Shown piece after piece: positions 1,784-11,407 of a stretch of 64,000 nucleotides of DNA. Each line of letters starts with the position of its first letter. The first letter of the stretch is position 1. Both the position numbers and the translations under genes were made by a program. This DNA comes from Escherichia coli (lineage in GTDB: Bacteria > Pseudomonadota > Gammaproteobacteria > Enterobacterales > Enterobacteriaceae). The notes below the pieces were generated by a model that saw nothing but the letters and a program-made list of their open reading frames with translations, had not been told where the DNA came from and ran no database searches. The stretch lies in NCBI RefSeq assembly GCF_013315695.1, contig NZ_CP054354.1; one strand, 5' to 3'.

Positions 1784-2244
1784 ACCAGGCATGTATATTT
1801 TACGCAGGGACATGCCGGTCATGATCGTTTCGTTCCAGGGGTGGTCTGGAGATCATGCGGTGTGCTCCCTGCTCTCGCCGGAATAAGGACGTCGCCGCCG
1901 GCTCCGCTTTTACCCGGCCATGCGGGGCATGGCCTTGTGGGTTTTCAGTTATGTGGCCGCCGTGTCGTGTGCGGGCTGTGCCGTGCCTCCATCGTAGCCG
2001 GGCTTCTGCGGGCGGGATGCAAGGTAAGATGAACCGCTGCGGTCACCCGGTCCCTCCTTCCCGTCTGCCGTGATTTTCCGGTCGTTCACCCGCTCAGATT
2101 TCGCGGTCTCACCCTCCAACTCCCGCCAGCCGTGTGCGTCAGGCTGCGGCTTCCCTTGCGCCCTTGCATCCCTGCAGGCCCGGCAAAGATGGAGGCACGG
2201 CACCGCCCGGTGTCGCAGAACATGTGACTATGGAGGATTCGGGA

Positions 2245-2745
2245 ATGTCTGTTGTTGCACCTGCTGTATACGTTGGAACCTGGCACAAATACAACTGTGG
2301 AAGCATCGCTGGCCGCTGGTTTGACCTGACAACGTTTGATGATGAACGCGACTTTTTCGCCGCCTGCCGTGCCCTTCACCAGGATGAAACCGACCCGGAA
2401 CTGATGTTTCAGGATTATGAGGGATTCCCGGGGAATATGGCCTCTGAATGCCATATCAACTGGGCCTGGGTTGAAGGCTTCCGCCAGGCGCGGGATGAAG
2501 GCTGCGAAGAGGCTTATCGTCTCTGGGTGGATGATACCGGTGAGACGGATTTTGACAGCTTCCGCGATGCCTGGTGGGGCGAGGCTGACAGTGAGGAGGC
2601 TTTTGCGGTTGAGTTCGTCAGTGATACCGGCCTGCTGGCTGACGTGCCGGAGACGGTGGCGCTCTATTTTGACTATGAGGCGTATGCGCGGGATTTATTC
2701 CTGGACTCCTTCACCTTTATTGACGGTCATGTGTTCCGTCGGTGA
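2245..2745 (+). CDS. ardA: ArdA-family antirestriction protein
   Basis: MSVVAPAVYVGTWHKYNCGSIAGRWF... and C-terminal YFDYEAYARDLFLDSFTFI match ArdA hallmark motifs; acidic; start chosen at ATG 2245 after GGAGG (ORF track start 2134 is probably an N-terminal over-extension). Confidence 0.8.
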   Translation: MSVVAPAVYVGTWHKYNCGSIAGRWFDLTTFDDERDFFAACRALHQDETDPELMFQDYEGFPGNMASECHINWAWVEGFRQARDEGCEEAYRLWVDDTGETDFDSFRDAWWGEADSEEAFAVEFVSDTGLLADVPETVALYFDYEAYARDLFLDSFTFIDGHVFRR

Positions 2746-3112
2746 TTTACTCCCCGCTCCGGCGGGGGGATGGCCTGCCAGGCCCCCGGAAAACCCTGGC
2801 AGGCTTACGCCTGCCTGAAATACAGGAGGGCCGCGCCTGCGGCGCTACCCTTCCTGCCTGTCATAGTGTGAGGCATTTTTCTGTTTTGTCGTTTCTGTTG
2901 TTCTGACTCCCGGGGGCGGGGACACCCTTCGGCTCCCGGCTGCCTGGCGGCATCCGGTCGTCAGGCCCGACTCCGACAGGCAGCTGCTGGCGCACCCGCC
3001 AGTCTCCGCCGAACCCGCTGGCGCGGTTTCGGGCTGCCGCTACGGTCCGATGTCTGAAAAACCAGGCTTGCAGCGACCGTTCCGGTCGCGCCGCCTCTGT
3101 CGCGCCGTGACC

Positions 3113-3433
3113 TGCGCTCCCTGCACACCTGACGGTGTGTAAGGAAACTGCGCCTGATGGCGCAGTTGTCTGCCCTTCCGCCGCCCCCCCTGCGGCCTGT
3201 TTCCCCGCTGTGGACTTTCCGGGGGCTGAAGCGGCCACAACACGTTTCAGCCGTCCAGGGGAGAGATGTACCAGCCACAAAACTTTTTGCCGCAAGCGTC
3301 AAAAACTTTTGCGTCTGCCCCCGGACAACTGCCCCGTGCCGTGGCAGTCGCTGCCCCATCGGAAAGGTCCACTGCGGGGAGAAACCCCGAAGAAGTGGAC
3401 GGCAGAAGGGGCTTTCGCCCCTCCGGGGGAGCA
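3113..3433. repeat. copy A of ~320-bp GC-rich noncoding repeat (candidate ssDNA promoter or leader element)
   Basis: High nucleotide identity by eye to 6481..6795; similarity does not respect reading frame (ORFs drawn in the two copies diverge after a shared MYQPQNFLPQASKTFASAPGQLPR); lies directly upstream of a + strand gene. Confidence 0.7.
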
Positions 3434-3477
3434 ACCGGTCGGCCCGGCGACCTGATTCAGCAGAAGGAGACGTTTTC

Positions 3478-3912
3478 ATGACAGTCAGCAGCACGATTTC
3501 CGTTTTTTGCCGCGACGGGGTGTTCCGTACCGTTTACTGCCACCTGCACGGTGAGCCGACCTGGAACGGTCGCATCCTGCATACCCACTATGCCACCGGT
3601 CAGCAGGCCGAAGCCCTGGTTGAACACGGTGATATCCGTTGCCTCGGTCCCCGTTGCGACAAACCCGCCGGGCATACGCTTCAGAACCCGGTGGACGGTG
3701 TGACGGCTTATTACGGACGTGACAGTGGTTTCCGGATGGACAGTGAGGCGCGTGAGTACCGTTCTTTCAGGGAGGCCATCGCCACGGAAAGCACTGAAGA
3801 GGTGCGCTTCCATTATGTGTTCATCGACGGCTACTGGAAGGTGATGTACCGCACGCCGGAAGGCTGGAAGATGAAAGCGCTCGCGCTGGCACTGCGTCGC
3901 TGTCCGGAATGA
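3478..3912 (+). CDS. hypothetical protein, 144 aa, Cys/His-containing
   Basis: Internal ATG 3478 of ORF 3157..3912 (MTVSSTISVF...); upstream part of the track ORF lies in repeat A; followed by a hairpin. Confidence 0.5.
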   Translation: MTVSSTISVFCRDGVFRTVYCHLHGEPTWNGRILHTHYATGQQAEALVEHGDIRCLGPRCDKPAGHTLQNPVDGVTAYYGRDSGFRMDSEAREYRSFREAIATESTEEVRFHYVFIDGYWKVMYRTPEGWKMKALALALRRCPE

Positions 3913-3917
3913 AAAAA

Positions 3918-3945
3918 AGCAGGGCGATAAACCCTGCCTTTCTCC
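3918..3945 (+). terminator. putative hairpin terminator
   Basis: agcaggg-cgataaa-ccctgc stem-loop followed by a T-rich tract, just after the stop at 3910-3912. Confidence 0.35.
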
Positions 3946-4004
3946 GCTGGCGCTTCCCCGTACGGAAGTCCGGCATCTCATTCACTAACTATGGAGATTA
4001 TGCC

Positions 4005-4271
4005 ATGAGACCATCAATTATCTTCGCAACCGCCGAGTATGTAAAGCGTCTGCGAGAAGAGTGCCTGCGGGAGAACAAACCCCTGCACCGCCATACCCGC
4101 TTCAGACGCCAGGAACTGGCACCGGATGAGATTAACCCGGACGTCCTGGCGATGGGCGGTCATATCGCCAGACGCTGCAGTGAGCAGAAGCGGGTACGTA
4201 TCCCCGCCATGAAAGTCAGCGAATGGGGCCACCTGCTCCGCGCGCTTGAAATTGAACGGGTCTGTCACTGA
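4005..4271 (+). CDS. hypothetical protein, 88 aa
   Basis: ATG 4005 with GGAGA 7 nt upstream (MRPSIIFATAEY...); ORF 3909..4271. Confidence 0.4.
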   Translation: MRPSIIFATAEYVKRLREECLRENKPLHRHTRFRRQELAPDEINPDVLAMGGHIARRCSEQKRVRIPAMKVSEWGHLLRALEIERVCH

Positions 4272-4447
4272 TTAACCCCTGCCGTCTGCCTGTGCAGGTG
4301 GCAGGATGTGTTCAGGTACTTTACCAGGAGGAACCGTGAGCAAGATGAAAAACATCACGACGTCTGTGTTGCATGGTGTCTCCACAAAAAACAGAAAAGG
4401 GAAACAGATTCTCTTTCATTCAGGGCCCGGGAGGGCTGGAGATAACA

Positions 4448-4837
4448 ATGAAGTCTTGTTTTGATACTGACAAAGCTTTTCATATGTCTTTTGATGAAGT
4501 CACTTTCAACGCTGACAGAATTCGCTCAAAACTGGAACTATTATCCGAAGAACTAATGCCCCGTTGTGGTCTTGTTTATGAGCTATATCAGCGACGTTTG
4601 AGTGCTGCTATTGATAATTTTGTGGCCACATTGCCGACAGAACAACATCTACTGGTCCTGGAACTGGCCCGTGAGGAGTTTGATTACCTTTCCGCAGAAG
4701 AGATTGCTGAAGAAATACGCCGTGACTCAGAACGCGGCTATTGTTGTCATGGCTTTGAACGCAATTGCTGTCCTCTCGGTTGTGGGGATTTGGGCGATGA
4801 TTGCTGCGATGCTGCTGATTTGATGGAGGAACCGTGA
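4448..4837 (+). CDS. acidic protein with Cys-rich C-terminus, 129 aa
   Basis: ATG 4448 after GGAG (MKSCFDTDKAF...); many D/E; C-terminal CCHGFERNCCPLGCGDLGDDCCDAAD; stop TGA overlaps GTG start of rpn (GTGA). Confidence 0.5.
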   Translation: MKSCFDTDKAFHMSFDEVTFNADRIRSKLELLSEELMPRCGLVYELYQRRLSAAIDNFVATLPTEQHLLVLELAREEFDYLSAEEIAEEIRRDSERGYCCHGFERNCCPLGCGDLGDDCCDAADLMEEP

Positions 4838-5748
4838 GTAAGAAGAAAAACACCACAACGCCCACGCCGCATGATGCCGCGTTCCGGTCGTTCCTGGCGA
4901 ATCCCGACGTCGCCAGAGATTTTCTGGAACTGCATCTTCCTGCGGAGTACCGGCAGTTGTGCGACCTGTCCACGCTGAAGCTGGAACCCGCCACCTTTGT
5001 AGAGCCGGACCTGCATCAGTACGCCAGCGATATCCTCTGGAGCGTGAAAACCACCGGGGGTGAAGACGGCTATGTTTATACGCTCATCGAGCACCAGAGC
5101 ACAGAAAATCTGTACATGCCTTTTCGCATGTTACGCTACAGTGTGGCGGCGATGCAGAGACATCTGGAGCAGCACAAAACGTTGCCACTGGTGATTCCGG
5201 TGCTGTTCTATCACGGTGAGCGCAGCCCGTACCCGTACAGCATGAACTGGCTGGACTGTTTTGAGAATCCGGCACTTGCGGCTAAAATATACACAAAACC
5301 GTTTCCGCTGGTTGATATCACTGTCGTTGATGACAATGAAATCATGAATCATCGCCGGATGGCCGCACTGACGCTGCTGATGAAGCATATCCGCCATCGT
5401 GACATGATGGAGCTGCTGGACAAACTCCCGCAGGTCATGGTGGAAATTTCAGACGAGCAGGTGCGTGTTCTGATTCATTACATCGTTAACGCAGGGGACT
5501 CTGTATCACCGGAATTTATGCGGGCGCTGGCTGAGCGTCTGCCGCAGCATGAGGATAAACTGATGACTATCGCAGAACGTCTTGAGCAAAAAGGTCGCCA
5601 GGAAGGCAGGATGGAAGGACGCATGGAAGGAGCGCTTGAAAAAGCCCTGGCTATTGCGTGCCAGCTTCAGAAAATGGGGATGACGCCGGAGCAGATTAAG
5701 CAGGCTACCGGACTTTCCGATGACGAACTGAAGAAAATCACTCACTGA
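4834..5748 (+). CDS. rpn: Rpn-family recombination-promoting nuclease (YhgA-like, PD-(D/E)xK)
   Basis: 304 aa; N-terminal and core match the Rpn/YhgA-like family; C-terminal tail MTIAERLEQKGRQEGRMEGRMEG...; GTG start after GGAGG. Confidence 0.75.
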   Translation: MSKKKNTTTPTPHDAAFRSFLANPDVARDFLELHLPAEYRQLCDLSTLKLEPATFVEPDLHQYASDILWSVKTTGGEDGYVYTLIEHQSTENLYMPFRMLRYSVAAMQRHLEQHKTLPLVIPVLFYHGERSPYPYSMNWLDCFENPALAAKIYTKPFPLVDITVVDDNEIMNHRRMAALTLLMKHIRHRDMMELLDKLPQVMVEISDEQVRVLIHYIVNAGDSVSPEFMRALAERLPQHEDKLMTIAERLEQKGRQEGRMEGRMEGALEKALAIACQLQKMGMTPEQIKQATGLSDDELKKITH

Positions 5749-5761
5749 TGAGAACCGCAAA

Positions 5762-5786
5762 GCCCGGCAAAATCCCGGGCTTTTTT
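5762..5786 (+). terminator. rho-independent terminator after rpn
   Basis: gcccgg-caaaatc-ccgggc stem-loop followed by TTTTTT. Confidence 0.65.
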
Positions 5787-5810
5787 GCCTGCAGGAGCAG
5801 AGCAAACAGC

Positions 5811-5981
5811 ATGACGATTGCAGAACGTCTTATACAGAAAGGTTTTGAAAAAGGTGCTCTTGAAGTGGCGCGGGAAATAGCCTGCCGGCTGCGGGATATG
5901 GGCTGGACGCCGGAACGGATTCAGGAGGCGACCGGACTTTCCGGTGAAGAACTGAAAAAGCTGTTTCCTGATGAGCAGTAG
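5811..5981 (+). CDS. standalone Rpn C-terminal-tail-like small protein (RpnS-like)
   Basis: 56 aa from ATG 5811: MTIAERLIQKGFEKGALEVAREIACRLRDMGWTPERIQEATGLSGEELKKL closely parallels the last ~60 aa of the upstream Rpn. Confidence 0.55.
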   Translation: MTIAERLIQKGFEKGALEVAREIACRLRDMGWTPERIQEATGLSGEELKKLFPDEQ

Positions 5982-6011
5982 CCTGGCATTCTGCCAGGCT
6001 GTGAATCACGC

Positions 6012-6263
6012 TCACACATCCTCTGCCGTTTCCCCCAGTTCATTTTCCAGTCGCCTGATGATATCTGCCTTACGCATCCCCTGCATGTGAGGCAGCAGGT
6101 CACGGACTGAAAGTGCCTGGGTGGTCCTCCAGACGGTGACATCCACCTGCTCCGCATTTTCCCAGGCGTGCCATGTTCTCTGTGTCACGCCAAATTCTCT
6201 GGCCGCTTTTTCGCGTGACCAGAGCATGCTTTTTCGCCAGATTCGCAGTTCCCAGCCGGTCAT
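6012..6263 (-). CDS. XRE-like helix-turn-helix regulator
   Basis: 83 aa; ...REKAAREFGVTQRTWHAWEN... resembles an HTH DNA-binding motif; AT-rich promoter region with palindromes upstream. Confidence 0.55.
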   Translation of the reverse strand: MTGWELRIWRKSMLWSREKAAREFGVTQRTWHAWENAEQVDVTVWRTTQALSVRDLLPHMQGMRKADIIRRLENELGETAEDV

Positions 6264-6277
6264 AAAATACCTTTTAA

Positions 6278-6298
6278 AAAGTGAAAAAACTTCACTTT
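6278..6298. promoter_or_regulatory. palindromic operator-like site AAAGTGAA-N5-TTCACTTT
   Basis: Perfect 8-bp inverted arms with 5-nt spacer, just upstream of the minus-strand HTH gene start. Confidence 0.4.
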
Positions 6299-6344
6299 AT
6301 TTTATCACCATAATCACCAAATCAGCGCGAAAAATAAATGTGAA

Positions 6345-6365
6345 AAAGTGAAGAAATTTCACTTT
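6345..6365. promoter_or_regulatory. second palindromic operator-like site AAAGTGAA-N5-TTCACTTT
   Basis: Same arms as 6278..6298, 67 bp away. Confidence 0.4.
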
Positions 6366-6480
6366 TTTTAGTTGTAGATGTCGTGCTGTTTTCTCTGTTT
6401 TCACCTGTGCGGGAGTGGGTGTCAGTGACCACCACATGCCATTGTTGTGCCGTCGTTTTTCTTCAGTCGCGCCGGATGCA

Positions 6481-6795
6481 GCGCTCCCTGCACACCTTAC
6501 GGTGTGTAAGGCCACTGCGCCTGATGGCGCAGCTGTCTCTGCCTGTCTGCCGCCGCACTGCGGCCTGTTCTCCGCAGACGGACTTTCCGGGGAACATACA
6601 CGACCACATCCCGTTTCAGTTATCCAGGGGAGAGATGTACCAGCCACAAAACTTTTTGCCGCAGGCGTCAAAAACTTTTGCGTCTGCCCCCGGACAACTG
6701 CCCCGTGACGTGGTGAGCATCCCCCGTCGGAAAGGTCCACTGCGGGGAAATCCCCGAAGACCCGGACGGCAGAAGGAGCTTCGCTCCTCCGGGAA
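6481..6795. repeat. copy B of ~320-bp GC-rich noncoding repeat
   Basis: See copy A; lies directly upstream of the gene starting at 6841. Confidence 0.7.
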
Positions 6796-6840
6796 ATGAC
6801 CTGGCTGACCCGGCAGTCGTGACGATGAGGAGACAATGTG

Positions 6841-7689
6841 ATGAATCAGACTTTACCCACTGCTGACCTGAATACTGCCGGCACGACAGATGTTATTCCG
6901 TCTGTAGCTATCGACCGCATCATCGCGCAGCGTAACGAAGGTATTGCACTGTTCATGCAGGCGATGGAATGCCTGGCGACAGCGCGCAAGATTCTGCTCG
7001 ATGCGTCAGGTGATATTTTTCTTTACGGGTTTGAAGACTGCGTGACTGATTCCGTTCGTCGCATGGATAAGACGGAAGAAGCGAAAAGGAATATCACCCG
7101 TCTTGCCGACCGGAAAATCTGGGACCGCCTGATGACAGATACGGGCATGTACACCTTCATGAGTTCATGCCAGCGTGATGAGTGGAACAGCCAGCTGATG
7201 AGCGACACCTGTCCTGAAATCACCCTGGACAATGTACTGGCAACATTCCGCCATCTTAATGCCAGCAAGATGCAGACGTTTGAACAGGGGCTGATTGATG
7301 TCTACCGGAAATTGTCATGGGATTACAGAACCAATAATCCCTGCCGTCTGGGTAAGAAAATCATTATTGAAAACCTACTGTACCGCTGGAGTAACGGGCG
7401 TGTGACGCTGGACTGCAGCGGACGGGAGGCACTGGATGACCTGGTACGTCCGTTTTATCTGCTGGAGGGGCGCAACGTTCCTGACTTCAGGAACAGCATC
7501 GGGGCGCAGTATGGTGAATTTCTCGGGAACGGTGACAATGTCGGTAAGCTGTTAGAAGGGGAATATTTTACGGTGCGTGGCTACCAGAAAGGGACCGTAC
7601 ACATTGTCTTTAAGCGTTCTGACCTTGTTGAAAAACTGAATGATATTATTGCACGGCATTATCCTGGTGCATTGCCGCCACGAGTCTGA
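6841..7689 (+). CDS. hypothetical leading-region protein, ~282 aa
   Basis: ORF 6838..7689; ATG 6841 with GAGGAG 8 nt upstream; no recognisable motif. Confidence 0.55.
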   Translation: MNQTLPTADLNTAGTTDVIPSVAIDRIIAQRNEGIALFMQAMECLATARKILLDASGDIFLYGFEDCVTDSVRRMDKTEEAKRNITRLADRKIWDRLMTDTGMYTFMSSCQRDEWNSQLMSDTCPEITLDNVLATFRHLNASKMQTFEQGLIDVYRKLSWDYRTNNPCRLGKKIIIENLLYRWSNGRVTLDCSGREALDDLVRPFYLLEGRNVPDFRNSIGAQYGEFLGNGDNVGKLLEGEYFTVRGYQKGTVHIVFKRSDLVEKLNDIIARHYPGALPPRV

Positions 7690-7755
7690 TTAAACAGAAA
7701 AGCCCAGGTATTTATGCCGGGGCTTTTTTTTCTGTAATCATCATAATCTCAGAAC

Positions 7756-7774
7756 ACAATGTGACATTGTCACA
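7756..7774. promoter_or_regulatory. overlapping perfect palindromes ACAATGT-G-ACATTGT / TGTGACA-T-TGTCACA
   Basis: Read directly from sequence between two convergent genes. Confidence 0.3.
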
Positions 7775-8110
7775 TCAATTGTTGTTCATATCGATGCCAT
7801 CTTTCCTGCCTGAATCTGTCTTTTTAGGTGCTGTTTTAGAGGAAGAACGGCGGGATGGTTTTTTCGATTCTGCTTCCCGAATAATGTCACGAAGTGCTTT
7901 CTCTCCTACTTCATATCCTGCATTTTTGAGCGTGTCACGAACATCTGTCAGTGTATAACCCTTTGTCCTTACCAGGATAATGATGTCATCACGAATGGCA
8001 TCAAGAAAATCACGCAATGTTTTCCGTTGAGCGGTGAGGTCTGGCAATTCCGATAAAGCAGCTTTTGCCAGCTGGATGTCATCATCTGAGTAAAATTTTT
8101 TAGACGCCAT
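7775..8110 (-). CDS. hypothetical basic protein next to oriT, possibly DNA-binding
   Basis: ORF 7775..8116; ATG at 8110 with GGAGA upstream; Lys/Arg-rich C-terminus; divergent from nikA. Confidence 0.45.
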   Translation of the reverse strand: MASKKFYSDDDIQLAKAALSELPDLTAQRKTLRDFLDAIRDDIIILVRTKGYTLTDVRDTLKNAGYEVGEKALRDIIREAESKKPSRRSSSKTAPKKTDSGRKDGIDMNNN

Positions 8111-8116
8111 TGGCAC

Positions 8117-8342
8117 TTTCTCTCCGTTTAATGTTGAAGCCTGATTTTATCATCAAAAACTGCCTCCTGGCAGGGCTGCGCCCTGCCTCTGCCGTCTGCA
8201 TAAGACTATGATGCACAAAAATAACAGGCTATAATGGACTGAAAAACGGGACAGGATGTGTAATCGTATAACCGCGCACGCACGGCTATACGATTACCAC
8301 CTGGTCAGGGCTTAGCCCCGACACCCCGGTAAGGAGCAGACC
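8117..8342. other. candidate origin of transfer (oriT)
   Basis: Intergenic region upstream of nikA; perfect 11-bp inverted repeat GTAATCGTATA (8260..8270) / TATACGATTAC (8287..8297); on the minus strand the repeat is followed 2 nt later by ATCCTG (8252..8258), resembling the MobP nick motif ATCCTG|C; second inverted repeat CAGGGC-TGC-GCCCTG nearby. Confidence 0.55.
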
Positions 8343-8675
8343 ATGAGTGAGAAGAAAACCCGAAGTGGCAGTGAGAAACGGCAAAAGAATGTCCTCATTG
8401 CTGTTCGTTTTTCACCAGAAGAGGCTGAGATTGTTAAAGAAAAGGCAGAAAAAAACGGACTGACAGTTTCAACTCTGATAAGAAAAACTGTGCTGGGAAA
8501 ACAGATAAATGCCCGCATTGACGAAGATTTTTTGAAAGAGCTGATGCGTCTTGGTCGCCTGCAGAAGCATCTGTTTGTGGAAGGAAAACGCACGGGAGAT
8601 AAAGAGTATGCAGAGGTTCTCGTTGCTATTACAGAGCTTGCTAATACTCTGCGAAGAAATTTAATGGGACGCTGA
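8343..8675 (+). CDS. nikA: NikA-like relaxosome accessory protein (ribbon-helix-helix)
   Basis: 110 aa, same size as R64 NikA; AGGAG RBS; directly upstream of the relaxase. Confidence 0.65.
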   Translation: MSEKKTRSGSEKRQKNVLIAVRFSPEEAEIVKEKAEKNGLTVSTLIRKTVLGKQINARIDEDFLKELMRLGRLQKHLFVEGKRTGDKEYAEVLVAITELANTLRRNLMGR

Positions 8676-8686
8676 GATAATCGCTG

Positions 8687-11407
8687 ATGAATGCCATCAT
8701 TCCGAAAAAAAGACGTGACGGAAAGTCTTCTTTTGAAGACCTGATTGCGTACACCTCAGTGCGGGATGATGTGCCGGAAGATGAACTCAGGCCTGACACG
8801 GAAATGAAAGCTGAGATTCCGCACCGGAACCGCTTCAGACGTCTTGTTGATTATGCAACACGTCTGCGTAATGAAAAATTTGTTTCCCTGATTGATGTGA
8901 TGAAAGACGGCAGTCAGTGGGTGAATTTCTATGGTGTGACCTGCTTTCATAACTGTTTGTCTCTTGAATCTGCGGCTGAAGAAATGCAGAAAGCAGCAGA
9001 GCTTGCTCATTTTTCCAAAGATGATACAGACCCTGTTTTTCACTATATTCTCTCCTGGCCTGCGCACGAAAGTCCGCGTTCTGAGCAGCTTTTTGACTGT
9101 GTGCGTCACACCCTGAAATCCCTTGAGCTGTCAAAACATCAGTATGTGGCAGCCGTTCATACAGACACGGATAACCTGCATGTACATGTTGCAGTGAATC
9201 GTGTCCACCCTGAAACCGGCTATATCAATTGCCTTCCGTGGAGCCAGGAAAAACTCAGTCGTGCATGCCGTGAACTTGAACTTAAGCACGGATTCGCGCC
9301 GGATAATGGTTGCTTTGTACATGCACCGGGCAATCGTATTGTGCGCAAAACAGCGCTGGTACGTGAGCGCCGTAATGCCTGGCGACGCGGGAAAAAGCAG
9401 ACGTTCAGGGAATATATTGATCAGATGTCGATTGCCGGGCTGCGTGAAGAGCCAGCACAGGACTGGTTATCTTTGCATAAACGGCTGGCCAGTGATGGTC
9501 TGTATATCACGATGCAGGAAGGGGAACTGGTGGTGAAGGATGGCTGGGACAAAGCGCGGGAAGGTATTGCACTCAGTTCGTTCGGACCGTCATGGACAGC
9601 TGAAAAACTGGGGCGGAAACTGGGGGAATATCAGCCTGTACCGACAGATATTTTCAGTCAGGTGGGGACACCCGGTCGTTATGATCCGGAAGCCATAAAC
9701 GTTGATATCCGGCCGGAAAAAGTGGCAGAAACGGAGAGTCTGAAACAGTACGCCTGCCGTCATTTTGCCGAACGCTTACTGGCAATGGCGCGCAATGGTG
9801 AACTGAAAAGCTGCCTGGCTGTACACCGTACTCTGGCAGAGGCGGGATTATGGATGGGGATTCAACACGGGCATCTGGTACTGCATGATGGATTTGATAA
9901 ACAACAGACACCAGTACGTGCAGACAGTGTGTGGCCGTTAATGACGCTGGATTACATGCAGGATCTGGATGGTGGATGGCAGCCTGTACCGAAGGATATT
10001 TTTACTCAGGTCGTTCCCGGAGAACGATTCCGGGGACACAGTATTGGCTCTCAGCCTGTCAGTGATTACGAATGGTATCGCATGAGGATGGGCACAGGTC
10101 CGCAGGGGGCTATAAAGCGTGAACTGTTTTCTGATAAGGAAAGTCTGTGGGGATACGGCCTTATTCAGTGCAGGAGCCTGATTGAAGAGATGATAGCTGA
10201 CGGGGATTTCAGCTGGCAGGCATGTCATGAGATGTTTGCACGTAAAGGGCTTATGCTGCAGAAACAGCATCATGGTCTTGTGATTGTGGATGCGTTTAAT
10301 CATGAGCTGACACCGGTGAAGGCCAGCAGTATCCATCCTGATTTGACGTTATCCCGTGCCGAGCCTCAGGCCGGGCCATTTGAAATTGCGGCTGCAGATA
10401 TTTTCGAACGGGTGAAGCCTGAATGTCGTTACAATCCGGAACTTGCTGCCAGTGATGAAGTGGAACCCGGCTTCCGGCGCGATCCTGAGATTCGTCGTGA
10501 GCGCCGTGAAGCCCGTGCAGCTGCGCGGGAAGATTTGCGTGCGCGTTATCTTGCATGGAAGGAGCACTGGCGTAAACCCGACTTACGTTACGGAGAACGG
10601 TTACGGGAAATTCATGCTGCCTGCCGTCGGCGCAAGGCGTATATCCGTGTGCAGTTCCGGGATCCACAATTGCGTAAGCTGCATTACCATATTGCGGAAG
10701 TGCAGCGTATGCAGGCGCTGATCAGGCTGAAGGAGAGTGTGAAGGAAGAGCGGTTGTCACTGATTGCGGAGGGTAAGTGGTATCCTTTGTCCTACCGGCA
10801 GTGGGTGGAACAACAGGCGGCTCAGGGAGACAGGGCTGCAGTATCGCAGTTACGTGGCTGGGATTATCGTGATCGTCGCTCGCGTAATAAGGATAAAAGA
10901 CGCACAACTAATGTTGATCGTTGTGTCGTACTCTGCGAACCCGGAGGAACGCCACTTTTTAATAATGTTGCAAAACTTGAAGCTCGTCTTCAGAAAAATG
11001 GAAGTGTTCATTTCAGGGATACGCGGACAGGAAAAAATGTCTGTACGGATTACGGAGATCGGGTTGTTTTCTACCATCACACGGACCGAAATGAACTGGC
11101 AGAGAAGCTTGATTTAATTGCGCCAGTTCTGTTCAGCCGCAACGGAAAGCTTGGTTTTGAGCCGGAAGGTTCATACCAGCAGTTTAATGATGTGTTTGCA
11201 GAAATGGTGGCCTGGCACAATGCAGCGGGAATAACCGGAAACGGACACTTCACCATTACTCGTCCGGACGTGGATTTGCACCGTCAACGCAGTGAGCAGT
11301 ATTACCGGGAATATATCAGACAGCAGACCCGTTTATCGGAGAGCCATGATGATAATTATACGTTACGGCAGGAGAAAACATGGGAGCCACCATCACCTGG
11401 AATGTAA
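8687..11407 (+). CDS. nikB: NikB-like MobP-family relaxase
   Basis: 906 aa; HTDTDNLHVHVAVNRV fits the relaxase HxDxxxxHxHxxxN histidine motif; size close to R64 NikB. Confidence 0.75.
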   Translation: MNAIIPKKRRDGKSSFEDLIAYTSVRDDVPEDELRPDTEMKAEIPHRNRFRRLVDYATRLRNEKFVSLIDVMKDGSQWVNFYGVTCFHNCLSLESAAEEMQKAAELAHFSKDDTDPVFHYILSWPAHESPRSEQLFDCVRHTLKSLELSKHQYVAAVHTDTDNLHVHVAVNRVHPETGYINCLPWSQEKLSRACRELELKHGFAPDNGCFVHAPGNRIVRKTALVRERRNAWRRGKKQTFREYIDQMSIAGLREEPAQDWLSLHKRLASDGLYITMQEGELVVKDGWDKAREGIALSSFGPSWTAEKLGRKLGEYQPVPTDIFSQVGTPGRYDPEAINVDIRPEKVAETESLKQYACRHFAERLLAMARNGELKSCLAVHRTLAEAGLWMGIQHGHLVLHDGFDKQQTPVRADSVWPLMTLDYMQDLDGGWQPVPKDIFTQVVPGERFRGHSIGSQPVSDYEWYRMRMGTGPQGAIKRELFSDKESLWGYGLIQCRSLIEEMIADGDFSWQACHEMFARKGLMLQKQHHGLVIVDAFNHELTPVKASSIHPDLTLSRAEPQAGPFEIAAADIFERVKPECRYNPELAASDEVEPGFRRDPEIRRERREARAAAREDLRARYLAWKEHWRKPDLRYGERLREIHAACRRRKAYIRVQFRDPQLRKLHYHIAEVQRMQALIRLKESVKEERLSLIAEGKWYPLSYRQWVEQQAAQGDRAAVSQLRGWDYRDRRSRNKDKRRTTNVDRCVVLCEPGGTPLFNNVAKLEARLQKNGSVHFRDTRTGKNVCTDYGDRVVFYHHTDRNELAEKLDLIAPVLFSRNGKLGFEPEGSYQQFNDVFAEMVAWHNAAGITGNGHFTITRPDVDLHRQRSEQYYREYIRQQTRLSESHDDNYTLRQEKTWEPPSPGM

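What the first reader, a model, noticed from the sequence alone, without database searches (positions are those of the whole stretch)
4326..5981. Rpn nuclease module with a coupled acidic Cys-rich upstream gene and a standalone Rpn-tail gene
An Rpn/YhgA-like nuclease gene (4834..5748) sits in the leading region. Three things are unusual. (i) A separate small gene (5811..5981) encodes a protein strongly similar to the Rpn C-terminal tail; in E. coli, tail-derived small proteins (RpnS) made from inside rpn genes have been reported to act as antitoxins to the full-length nuclease, so this looks like an extragenic copy. (ii) The upstream 129-aa acidic protein ends in CCHGFERNCCPLGCGDLGDDCC and its stop overlaps the rpn GTG start (GTGA), implying co-translation. 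(iii) About 35 bp of the rpn RBS and start region is duplicated at 4326..4362 ahead of that upstream gene, suggesting a past recombination event.
Basis: partly seen in the sequence, partly recalled or inferred. Interest (0 to 1): 0.7.

Follow-up and report, generated by a model that had tools for sequence, protein, structure and literature searches.

The report
IncI1 plasmid Rpn nuclease locus
This is the Rpn toxin-antitoxin and phage-defence nuclease locus of IncI1 plasmids, already studied as RpnP2, with its known spare "tail" gene downstream and an unrelated leading-region gene (ccgAII) inserted in front of it in about a quarter of plasmids.

Summary
All three observations are real.

- **Host.** The window is an IncI1 plasmid, 100% identical to NZ_CP146671.1. 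The region lies in its leading region, about 2.5 kb from oriT.
- **The nuclease.** The rpn gene (R64 name ygdB) is an allele of RpnP2, which Zhong et al. 2023 (PNAS) characterised experimentally. Its catalytic residues are intact. It carries its own internal start for the antitoxin RpnS at 5563.
- **The 56-aa gene.** It belongs to the published "RpnSs" class of stand-alone downstream tail genes. It is a separate, conserved tail lineage, 58% identical to the neighbour's tail. Its 4-aa repeat number varies independently of the nuclease's. In sister plasmids it occurs in tandem with a second tail gene, or fused onto the nuclease.
- **The acidic Cys-rich gene.** It is a CcgAII-family leading-region gene. 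About 507 of about 2,080 plasmids with this locus carry it. CcgAII relatives elsewhere have no Rpn neighbour.
- **The overlap and the duplication.** The GTGA overlap and the 52-nt duplicate are scars of the ccgAII insertion. The "empty site" exists, including in the ECOR13 plasmid used by Zhong et al.

This is a new member of a known kind, of modest interest.

The parts
3096..3449 (-). ssi/Frpo-type single-stranded-DNA promoter repeat upstream of the operon that contains rpn. The element folds in the transferred (-) strand.
   Evidence: Three dispersed copies in the plasmid, upstream of ssb, ygcA and ygfB. The - strand of 3080-3440 folds at -115.6 kcal/mol, z = -9.3. Frpo-like repeats R1-R3 are described for IncI leading regions in PMC3817090, and ssi1-3 are active early in an IncI1 plasmid in PMC12672017.
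3478..3912 (+). ygcA, 144 aa, first gene of the operon, function unknown
   Evidence: ORF list. R64-style name from LC567099. Matches PHROG 1987, of unknown function.
4005..4271 (+). ygdA, 88 aa, function unknown. In plasmids without the insert it lies directly upstream of rpn.
   Evidence: The upstream 300 nt of the RpnP2 gBlock AO591 equal window 4036-4335 at 93.3%.
4327..4378 (+). Decayed duplicate of the rpn ribosome-binding site, GTG start (4336) and first 14 codons. It opens a 42-aa out-of-frame ORF (4336..4464) that ends 14 nt past the ccgAII ATG.
   Evidence: In the IncK2/Z plasmid L031 the remnant is 14 nt longer, about 72 nt homologous to the rpn 5' end, and in frame with ccgAII as a 171-aa ORF (P0005).
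4448..4837 (+). ccgAII-family gene, 129 aa, acidic, with a C-x-H-x6-C-x3-C motif. It is the cargo of an insertion polymorphism.
4834..5748 (+). rpn (R64 name ygdB), full-length RpnL, a PD-(D/E)xK nuclease toxin of 304 aa with a GTG start
   Evidence: PF04754, E 2.2e-78. TIGR01784, 181.9 bits against a cut-off of 52.1. The 5' 108 nt are identical to the RpnP2 gBlock, and 4834-5231 is 96.5% identical to AO730, which carries 7 engineered changes. The residues mutated in the RpnP2 active-site mutant (D14, D66, E86, Q88) are all present.
5551..5748 (+). Intragenic rpnS: GAGGA (5551-5555), 7 nt, then ATG at 5563. It encodes a 61-aa tail protein, the presumed cognate antitoxin.
   Evidence: The position is homologous to the internal start and ribosome-binding site that were mutated to make RpnP2L* (AO714). 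Sequence.
5596..5631 (+). Hypervariable dodecamer (4-aa) repeats RQEG-RMEG-RMEG in the tail
   Evidence: Tandem Repeats Finder reports period 12. Sister plasmids carry 0 to 5 copies.
5757..5788 (+). GC-rich hairpin followed by a T-run, an intrinsic terminator between rpn and the small gene
   Evidence: -19.6 kcal/mol. Conserved with compensatory changes in L015 and L018, and in the ECOR13 plasmid (primer AO740).
5811..5981 (+). rpnSs: stand-alone Rpn-tail gene, 56 aa, 'I-type' tail with one FEKG repeat
   Evidence: Precomputed Pfam family PF27070 HTH_Rpn_C. dN/dS is about 0.1-0.25 among plasmids. In the model the best PDB match is 7th0, RpnA-S.
5979..6001 (.). Hairpin between the convergent genes rpnSs and ygeA
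   Evidence: -17.9 kcal/mol, z = -3.2.

Best explanation
This is the IncI1 leading-region rpn locus (R64 name ygdB), a variant of the characterised RpnP2 system.

- RpnL is a PD-(D/E)xK nuclease that is toxic on its own. RpnS, translated from an internal start at 5563 in the same gene, holds it in check through the shared C-terminal three-helix domain. The number of 4-aa repeats in that domain sets partner specificity.
- After a terminator lies rpnSs, a paralogous tail gene of a separate lineage (I-type). It is kept under purifying selection. It recombines with the nuclease gene at the shared MTIAERL box, so it acts as a spare tail cassette and perhaps as an additional small inhibitor.
- In about a quarter of plasmids, including this one, a ccgAII gene was placed between a duplicated rpn 5' end and the intact rpn. 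This produced the 52-nt repeat and the GTGA stop/start overlap.
- The operon sits behind an ssi/Frpo single-strand promoter and points towards oriT, so it is probably transcribed in a burst when the plasmid enters a new cell.

Shown here: homology, gene anatomy, the insertion polymorphism, cassette diversity and selection on rpnSs. Taken from the literature on the sister allele: toxicity, antitoxin action and phage defence. Inferred: early expression, and the role of rpnSs.
For: - Identity with an IncI1 plasmid and its leading-region gene order.
- Rpn family membership.
- The RpnP2 gBlock and primers match the window. They also show the empty site, the internal start, the terminator and the start of the downstream small gene in the ECOR13 plasmid.
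- Zhong et al. 2023 report that RpnL is toxic and RpnS is its antitoxin, that repeat number sets specificity, that RpnSs genes lie downstream of rpn on chromosomes and plasmids, and that RpnP2 defends against T-even phages.
- 2,081 plasmid records carry the locus and about 507 carry ccgAII. The rest match from window 4825 onwards.
- CcgAII homologues in other plasmids have no Rpn neighbour.
- Tail types and repeat counts were tabulated in about 50 loci. L022 and L023 carry two tandem stand-alone tails. In L033 the I-type tail is fused to RpnL and no downstream gene remains.
- dN/dS for rpnSs is about 0.1-0.25.
- ssi repeats and their fold, and the early induction of ssi-driven operons in an IncI1 plasmid.
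- Rpn, a small 'RpnE'-named family and CcgAII are listed at ORF positions 4, 3 and 5 from oriT among prevalent leading-region families.
Against: - No experiment exists on this particular allele (E-type tail, three repeats) or on any IncI rpnSs.
- The C-terminal third of this Rpn differs from RpnP2, so toxicity and defence are extrapolated.
- The terminator and the weak ribosome-binding-site spacing (AGGAG 13 nt from the ATG) leave rpnSs expression uncertain.
- The paper on early transcription does not name the genes of the induced operons in the text I could read.
- Which of the two states, with or without ccgAII, is ancestral is not resolved.
Confidence: 0.85

Rival explanations
1. One reading: a three-gene module. 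The stand-alone tail protein is the antitoxin of the adjacent nuclease, and the co-translated acidic Cys-rich protein is a dedicated partner or regulator of Rpn.
For: The tail similarity is 58% with a shared MTIAERL start. The GTGA overlap is real. Both small genes lie on the same strand in the same operon. In the IncFIB plasmid L018 the downstream tail is nearly identical to its nuclease's tail.
Against: ccgAII is absent from about 75% of plasmids with the locus and from the functional RpnP2 construct. The CcgAII family is widespread without Rpn. The I-type tail lies downstream of E-, Q- and mosaic-type nucleases with unmatched repeat numbers, and a one-repeat difference abolished antitoxin action in the published test. 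The intragenic RpnS alone sufficed for RpnP2.
Confidence: 0.1
2. The stand-alone I-type tail protein acts in trans on other nucleases. It would be an orphan antitoxin or decoy made early after transfer, neutralising Rpn nucleases with I-type tails that are encoded by resident or competing plasmids or by the recipient. That would make it an anti-defence or plasmid-competition factor.
For: It sits at position 3 from oriT, on the strand that serves as template, behind an ssi promoter. It is conserved under purifying selection while the neighbouring tail type changes. Nucleases with I-type tails exist in nature (L033). Orphan antitoxins are noted as enriched in leading regions.
Against: There is no direct evidence. 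A terminator precedes the gene. Its repeat number is itself highly variable, which would narrow any target range. I did not find I-type tails on chromosomal Rpn proteins: the top 120 relatives are all small proteins.
Confidence: 0.1
3. The small gene and the 5' duplicate are inert debris from recombination at a hyper-recombinogenic locus and have no function.
For: The 5' remnant is clearly decaying: 79% identity and a 14-nt deletion that breaks the frame. Cassettes are gained, lost and fused. Changes in units of 12 nt preserve the reading frame automatically.
Against: dS is 0.11-0.25 against dN of 0-0.04 across most pairs, with several pairs showing only silent changes. The ORF is intact in every locus examined, including the distant IncFIB one. 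The published homologue YpaA/RpnESs is expressed.
Confidence: 0.08

Closest known systems
RpnP2 (RpnP2L/RpnP2S) of the E. coli ECOR13 plasmid, Zhong et al. 2023 PNAS (PMC10400941)
   Same: Same plasmid locus, between ygdA and ygeA. It has the same GTG start and ribosome-binding site, and an N-terminal nuclease domain that is nearly identical at the DNA level (108/108 and 96.5%). It shares the same catalytic residues, the same internal start position, the same terminator, and the downstream small gene.
   Different: The C-terminal third differs: E-type tail MTIAERLEQKG(RQEG/RMEG)3 here, against Q-type MTLAERLKQEG(IQQG)n in RpnP2. The window also has the ccgAII insertion and the duplicated 5' end, which ECOR13 lacks.
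RpnSs genes: ypaA (rpnESs) downstream of rpnE, and rpnCSs downstream of rpnC, in E. coli
   Same: A small gene immediately downstream of rpn on the same strand. It encodes only the tail domain, starts at the residue equivalent to the internal start, and has variable 4-aa repeats. It can be lost by deletion or by fusion to the nuclease.
   Different: The published RpnCSs and RpnESs cluster with the tail of their own upstream gene. The IncI1 small gene is a separate lineage (58% identity) kept downstream of at least three different nuclease tail types. Some plasmids carry two such genes in tandem.
CcgAII of IncN plasmids pKM101/R46 ('CUP-controlled' leading-region genes)
   Same: 52-75% identity over about 100 aa, the conserved C-x-H-x6-C-x3-C end motif, and a leading-region position pointing towards oriT.
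   Different: The IncI1 copy is longer at both ends. Its last 13 residues (DDCCDAADLMEEP) are read from the rpn ribosome-binding-site region. The function of the family is unproven: 'antirestriction' appears in annotations and in PMC3817090 without a test that I could find.
Frpo / ssi single-stranded-DNA promoters of F and ColIb-P9
   Same: About 320-nt dispersed repeats upstream of leading-region operons. They fold into a long hairpin in the transferred strand.
   Different: The activity of the copy at 3096-3449 was not tested here. That it drives rpn is inferred from its position.

Membership tests
Rpn (YhgA-like) recombination-promoting nucleases | N-terminal PD-(D/E)xK 'Transposase_31' domain | tested here: met
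   PF04754, E 2.2e-78, residues 11-207. TIGR01784, 181.9 bits against a cut-off of 52.1.
Rpn (YhgA-like) recombination-promoting nucleases | Catalytic acidic residues intact | tested here: met
   D14, D66, E86 and Q88 are the residues changed in the RpnP2 active-site mutant gBlock AO730. All four are present in the window protein.
Rpn (YhgA-like) recombination-promoting nucleases | Orthology to a named chromosomal Rpn (RpnA etc.) | tested here: not met
   The RpnA equivalog model scores 322.5 bits and PRK09956 scores 331.6 bits, both against cut-offs of 583. This is a plasmid lineage.
RpnL/RpnS gene-within-gene toxin-antitoxin | Internal ribosome-binding site and start codon in front of the tail domain | tested here: met
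   GAGGA, 7 nt, then ATG at 5563. This is homologous to the site mutated in RpnP2L*. Use of the start was not measured.
RpnL/RpnS gene-within-gene toxin-antitoxin | Tail with variable 4-aa repeats in the first helix | tested here: met
   RQEG-RMEG-RMEG in the window. Sister plasmids carry 0-5 copies.
RpnL/RpnS gene-within-gene toxin-antitoxin | RpnL is toxic and RpnS neutralises it | not testable with these tools
   Shown for the RpnP2 allele only.
RpnSs (stand-alone downstream tail genes; PF27070 HTH_Rpn_C) | Homology to the Rpn tail, beginning at the residue equivalent to the internal start | tested here: met
   BLASTP E 2e-17. TIGR01784 positions 225-273. Precomputed PF27070. The best structural match is 7th0, RpnA-S: 44% identity, probability 0.90, but E 0.45.
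RpnSs (stand-alone downstream tail genes; PF27070 HTH_Rpn_C) | Immediately downstream of rpn on the same strand, with its own repeat polymorphism | tested here: met
   62 nt after the rpn stop codon. It carries 0-6 repeats across loci.
RpnSs (stand-alone downstream tail genes; PF27070 HTH_Rpn_C) | Derived from, and clustering with, the tail of its own upstream rpn, as reported for RpnCSs and RpnESs | tested here: not met
   The I-type tail is distinct from the E, Q and mosaic tails of the adjacent nucleases. The feature is met only in the IncFIB locus L018.
CcgAII family | Sequence homology including the conserved Cys/His end motif | tested here: met
   E down to 1e-45 against proteins named CcgAII. 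C99, H101, C108 and C112 are invariant in 68 sequences.
CcgAII family | Antirestriction activity | not testable with these tools
   Asserted in PMC3817090 and in the annotation of a supplementary table. No structural similarity to known anti-restriction proteins was found.
   ccgAII is present in about 507 of 2,081 loci. CcgAII occurs elsewhere without Rpn.
Frpo/ssi ssDNA promoters | Dispersed repeat that forms a long hairpin in the transferred strand upstream of leading-region operons | tested here: met
   Three copies. Fold z = -9.3. Promoter activity was not testable.

The most novel reading that the evidence does not exclude
The conserved I-type stand-alone tail gene is not the antitoxin of its neighbour. 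It would be a separately selected element with one of two roles. It could be a trans-acting decoy, made early after transfer, against Rpn nucleases with I-type tails in resident plasmids or recipients. Or it could be a silent cassette that lets the plasmid switch the nuclease's tail specificity by recombination at the MTIAERL box. Under the second role the locus would be a small cassette-switching system, comparable in logic to shufflons or pilin cassettes.
Probability: 0.15. Interest if true: 0.55.

Novelty: new member of a known kind. Interest (0 to 1): 0.3.

Why it matters
The locus is among the first genes to enter a new host on more than 2,000 sequenced IncI-complex resistance plasmids, and it encodes a potentially lethal nuclease. 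Three points follow from this work.

- Results on RpnP2 can be transferred to the window gene, because it is the same locus.
- Natural variants already exist (one, two or no stand-alone tails; four tail types; 0 to 6 repeats). They give a ready-made panel for testing how tail type and repeat number set toxin-antitoxin specificity.
- The "coupled" acidic gene is an independent leading-region gene of unknown function, and should be studied as such.

None of this overturns current understanding.

Tried and rejected
- **Rpn in other libraries.** Rpn is not in PADLOC v2. The full-length protein has no PDB sequence match.
- **RNA families.** Rfam found nothing in 2500-8600.
- **Terminator scan.** The consensus scan missed the hairpin after rpn. 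Direct folding showed it.
- **Split-gene idea, rejected.** I considered that the 5' remnant and the 3' small gene were the two ends of one ancestral rpn split by an insertion. The small gene is present in all plasmids without the insert, and the remnant always travels with ccgAII.
- **Deletion idea, rejected.** I considered that the empty site arose by deletion between the two 52-nt repeats of a window-like ancestor. The flank just upstream of the ribosome-binding site also differs between the two haplotypes, by 7 of 30 nt.
- **Recent literature.** Searches for work on Rpn after 2023 found nothing relevant.
Full report
**What the window is.** The region 3900-6300 is 100% identical to the E. 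coli plasmid NZ_CP146671.1 (IncI1/B/O, MOBP, MPF_I). It matches about 2,080 PLSDB plasmids, mostly from Escherichia, Salmonella and Shigella. In that record the gene order is ssb, parB-like, psiB, psiA, ardA, ygcA, ygdA, the 129-aa gene, rpn, the small gene, an HTH gene on the opposite strand, a DUF4942 gene, then nikA and the relaxase. All + strand genes point towards oriT, which is the usual leading-region orientation. R64-style names from LC567099 are ygcA, ygdA, ygdB (the rpn gene), ygeA (the HTH gene) and ygfB (the DUF4942 gene). The small gene has no name there.

**Checking the three observations.**
- The 56-aa product of 5811..5981 aligns with Rpn residues 244-302 at 58% identity, E 2e-17. 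The single 8-aa gap equals two 4-aa repeats.
- The 129-aa ORF is acidic (pI 4.38, 9 Cys). Its TGA stop overlaps the rpn GTG start.
- The duplicated segment is 52 nt long (4327-4378 vs 4825-4876, 79% identity). It starts with an exact 14-mer that occurs only at these two places in the window, where 0.05 matches are expected by chance.

All three observations are confirmed.

**The nuclease is an allele of a characterised gene.**
- The protein is a clear Rpn/YhgA-like family member. PF04754 matches at E 2.2e-78, and TIGR01784 scores above its cut-off.
- Zhong et al. 2023 showed that Rpn genes are toxin-antitoxin systems. The full-length nuclease RpnL is toxic. A small protein, RpnS, is translated from an internal start in the same gene and blocks it. 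The number of 4-aa repeats in the shared tail sets specificity. The plasmid-encoded RpnP2 protects against T-even phages.
- Their Dataset S2 gives the synthetic DNA for RpnP2 from the ECOR13 plasmid. Its first 108 nt from the ribosome-binding site are identical to window 4825-4932. A 398-nt block is 96.5% identical, including seven engineered changes. Its 300 upstream nt equal window 4036-4335 at 93.3%.
- The residues they mutated to inactivate RpnP2 (D14, D66, E86, Q88) are all present here.
- The site they mutated to abolish RpnP2S corresponds to GAGGA, 7 nt, then ATG at window 5563.
- The last third of the protein differs. The window has an "E-type" tail, MTIAERLEQKG(RQEG/RMEG)3ALEKA. RpnP2 has a "Q-type" tail, MTLAERLKQEG(IQQG)nALQKA.

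**The stand-alone tail gene.**
- Zhong et al. already described tail genes encoded separately downstream of rpn, on chromosomes and on plasmids. They called them RpnSs. Examples are ypaA (rpnESs) and rpnCSs. They noted the repeat variation in these genes and their loss by deletion or by fusion to the nuclease. The kind is therefore known.
- Their RpnP2 construct ended 101 nt after the stop codon, inside the downstream small gene. The reverse complement of primer AO619 matches window 5829-5850. RpnP2LS was nevertheless non-toxic, while RpnP2L* was toxic. The intragenic RpnS is sufficient for that allele.
- I compared about 50 related loci.
  - The nuclease carries at least three tail types (E, Q, and an E/Q mosaic), with 0 to 5 repeats.
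  - The downstream gene is always a third lineage, "I-type": MTIAERLIQKG(FEKG/FDEG/FKEG)nALEVAREIACRLRDMGW, with 0 to 6 repeats.
  - The two repeat numbers match in only one of the combinations seen.
  - Two loci (L022, L023) have a Q-type nuclease followed by a stand-alone E-type tail and then the I-type tail.
  - One plasmid (L033) has the I-type tail fused onto the nuclease, with no downstream gene.
  - The cassettes are therefore shuffled by recombination at the conserved 5' box, which is 82% identical over 33 nt in the window (D8).
- Outside the repeats, the I-type gene shows dS of 0.11-0.25 against dN of 0-0.04 in most pairs. Several pairs differ only by silent changes. It is a maintained coding gene, not debris.
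- A hairpin followed by a T-run lies between rpn and the small gene. It is conserved with compensatory changes. The 21-codon extension in NCBI's 77-aa annotation crosses that hairpin and is not conserved. I therefore take 5811 as the start.
- An AlphaFold model (pLDDT 84) has E. coli RpnA-S (7th0) as its best PDB match: 44% identity, probability 0.90. The E-value of 0.45 is not significant for so small a domain.

**The acidic Cys-rich gene.**
- Its homologues are named CcgAII, after a leading-region gene of IncN plasmids. The family has no Pfam model. A library clustered at 50% identity holds 385 representatives.
- Typical members are about 102 aa and end at GCGDLDD. The invariant residues are C99, H101, C108 and C112.
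- The IncI1 copy reads 13 codons further (DDCCDAADLMEEP), through the rpn ribosome-binding site, and stops at the TGA that overlaps the GTG. This is the origin of the overlap.
- CcgAII homologues in IncF plasmids (near traM), IncN-like plasmids (near ardA), IncI2 and other plasmids have no Rpn neighbour.
- Of 2,081 plasmid records with the rpn locus, about 507 contain the insert, most at 99% identity or more. The rest align only from window 4825 onwards.
- An alignment of the junctions shows the empty site. The ygdA intergenic region runs straight into GGAGGAACCGTGAGTAAG, exactly as in the ECOR13 gBlock.
- The haplotype with the insert also differs in the 30 nt upstream of the left repeat. In the IncK2/Z plasmid L031 the left rpn remnant is 14 nt longer, about 72 nt homologous to the rpn 5' end, and in frame with ccgAII. 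The block looks like an older rearrangement that moved between plasmid lineages, not a recent duplication.
- The remnant keeps the strong ribosome-binding site and the GTG. Its 42-codon ORF ends 14 nt after the ccgAII ATG. Serial translational coupling (remnant ORF to ccgAII to rpn) is possible, but it would be a by-product of the insertion.
- The model of CcgAII is a four-helix bundle with a C-terminal Cys/His knuckle (pLDDT 85.8). It has no informative structural neighbour. Its function remains unknown.
- The ccgAII gene next to a "transposase" in IncI leading regions was already noted in 2013 (PMC3817090).

**Expression context.**
- A repeat of about 320 nt occurs three times in the plasmid, upstream of ssb, ygcA and ygfB. 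The copy at 3096-3449 folds in the transferred strand at -115.6 kcal/mol, z = -9.3.
- Such ssi/Frpo elements drive strong early transcription in an IncI1 plasmid. I infer, but have not shown, that the ygcA-ygdA-ccgAII-rpn operon is induced on entry into a recipient.
- The survey by Samuel et al. 2024 lists three relevant leading-region families: "RpnB" (2,601 members, median position 4 from oriT), "RpnE" (2,372 members, half annotated as hypothetical, position 3), and "CcgAII" (715 members, position 5). These positions match the order seen here. All three genes were therefore already catalogued as prevalent leading-region families.

**Verdict.** The observations hold. The locus is a variant of a published system and not a new module. 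Three details have not been described, as far as I could find:
- the separate I-type lineage of the stand-alone tail;
- its independence from the neighbouring tail in both type and repeat number;
- the natural series of two, one or no stand-alone cassettes.

These details leave open a modest novel reading, in which the tail gene is a trans-acting decoy or a switching cassette. I rate that reading at about 15%.

Noticed in passing
window 6264-6369: An AT-rich region upstream of the HTH gene ygeA (6012-6263, - strand) holds two copies of a 39-nt repeat. Each contains the palindrome AAAGTGAA-N5/6-TTCACTTT, which looks like operator sites for the HTH protein.
   Followed up: partly
window 1972-2209: A 32-nt inverted repeat (91% complementary, arms 174 nt apart) lies just upstream of ardA. 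The surrounding 300 nt are 97% identical to a segment upstream of the other antirestriction gene in the plasmid (L001 3076-3375 vs 10026-10325). This fits the 'class 2' single-strand promoters reported upstream of ardA and klcA in PMC12672017.
   Followed up: partly
window 6463-6813: A second ssi/Frpo-type repeat lies directly upstream of the DUF4942 gene ygfB (6838-7689), the + strand gene nearest to oriT.
   Followed up: partly
L022 and L023, 1981-2395: Some IncI plasmids carry two stand-alone Rpn-tail genes in tandem. An E-type gene of 53 aa is followed by an I-type gene of 64 aa, downstream of a Q-type nuclease.
   Followed up: yes
L033 (NZ_MZ152086.1), 1363-2286: In this plasmid the I-type tail is fused in frame to the nuclease and the stand-alone gene is gone. 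It is a natural tail swap.
   Followed up: yes
L043, 1990-2431: In this contig the nuclease gene is truncated: only 137 in-frame codons precede the tail, and a DUF1281 gene lies upstream. Both tail reading frames remain.
   Followed up: no
window 3478-3912 and 4448-4837: Public annotations are misleading. ygcA is called 'post-segregation killing protein PndC' and ccgAII is called 'cobalamin biosynthesis protein CbiX' in several GenBank records. No family search supports either name.
   Followed up: partly
L036, L037, L041 and L042, 1-956: In several plasmids an IS21-family element (Mu-type transposase plus IstB) lies directly upstream of rpn and cuts into or replaces the ygcA-ygdA-ccgAII segment.
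   Followed up: no
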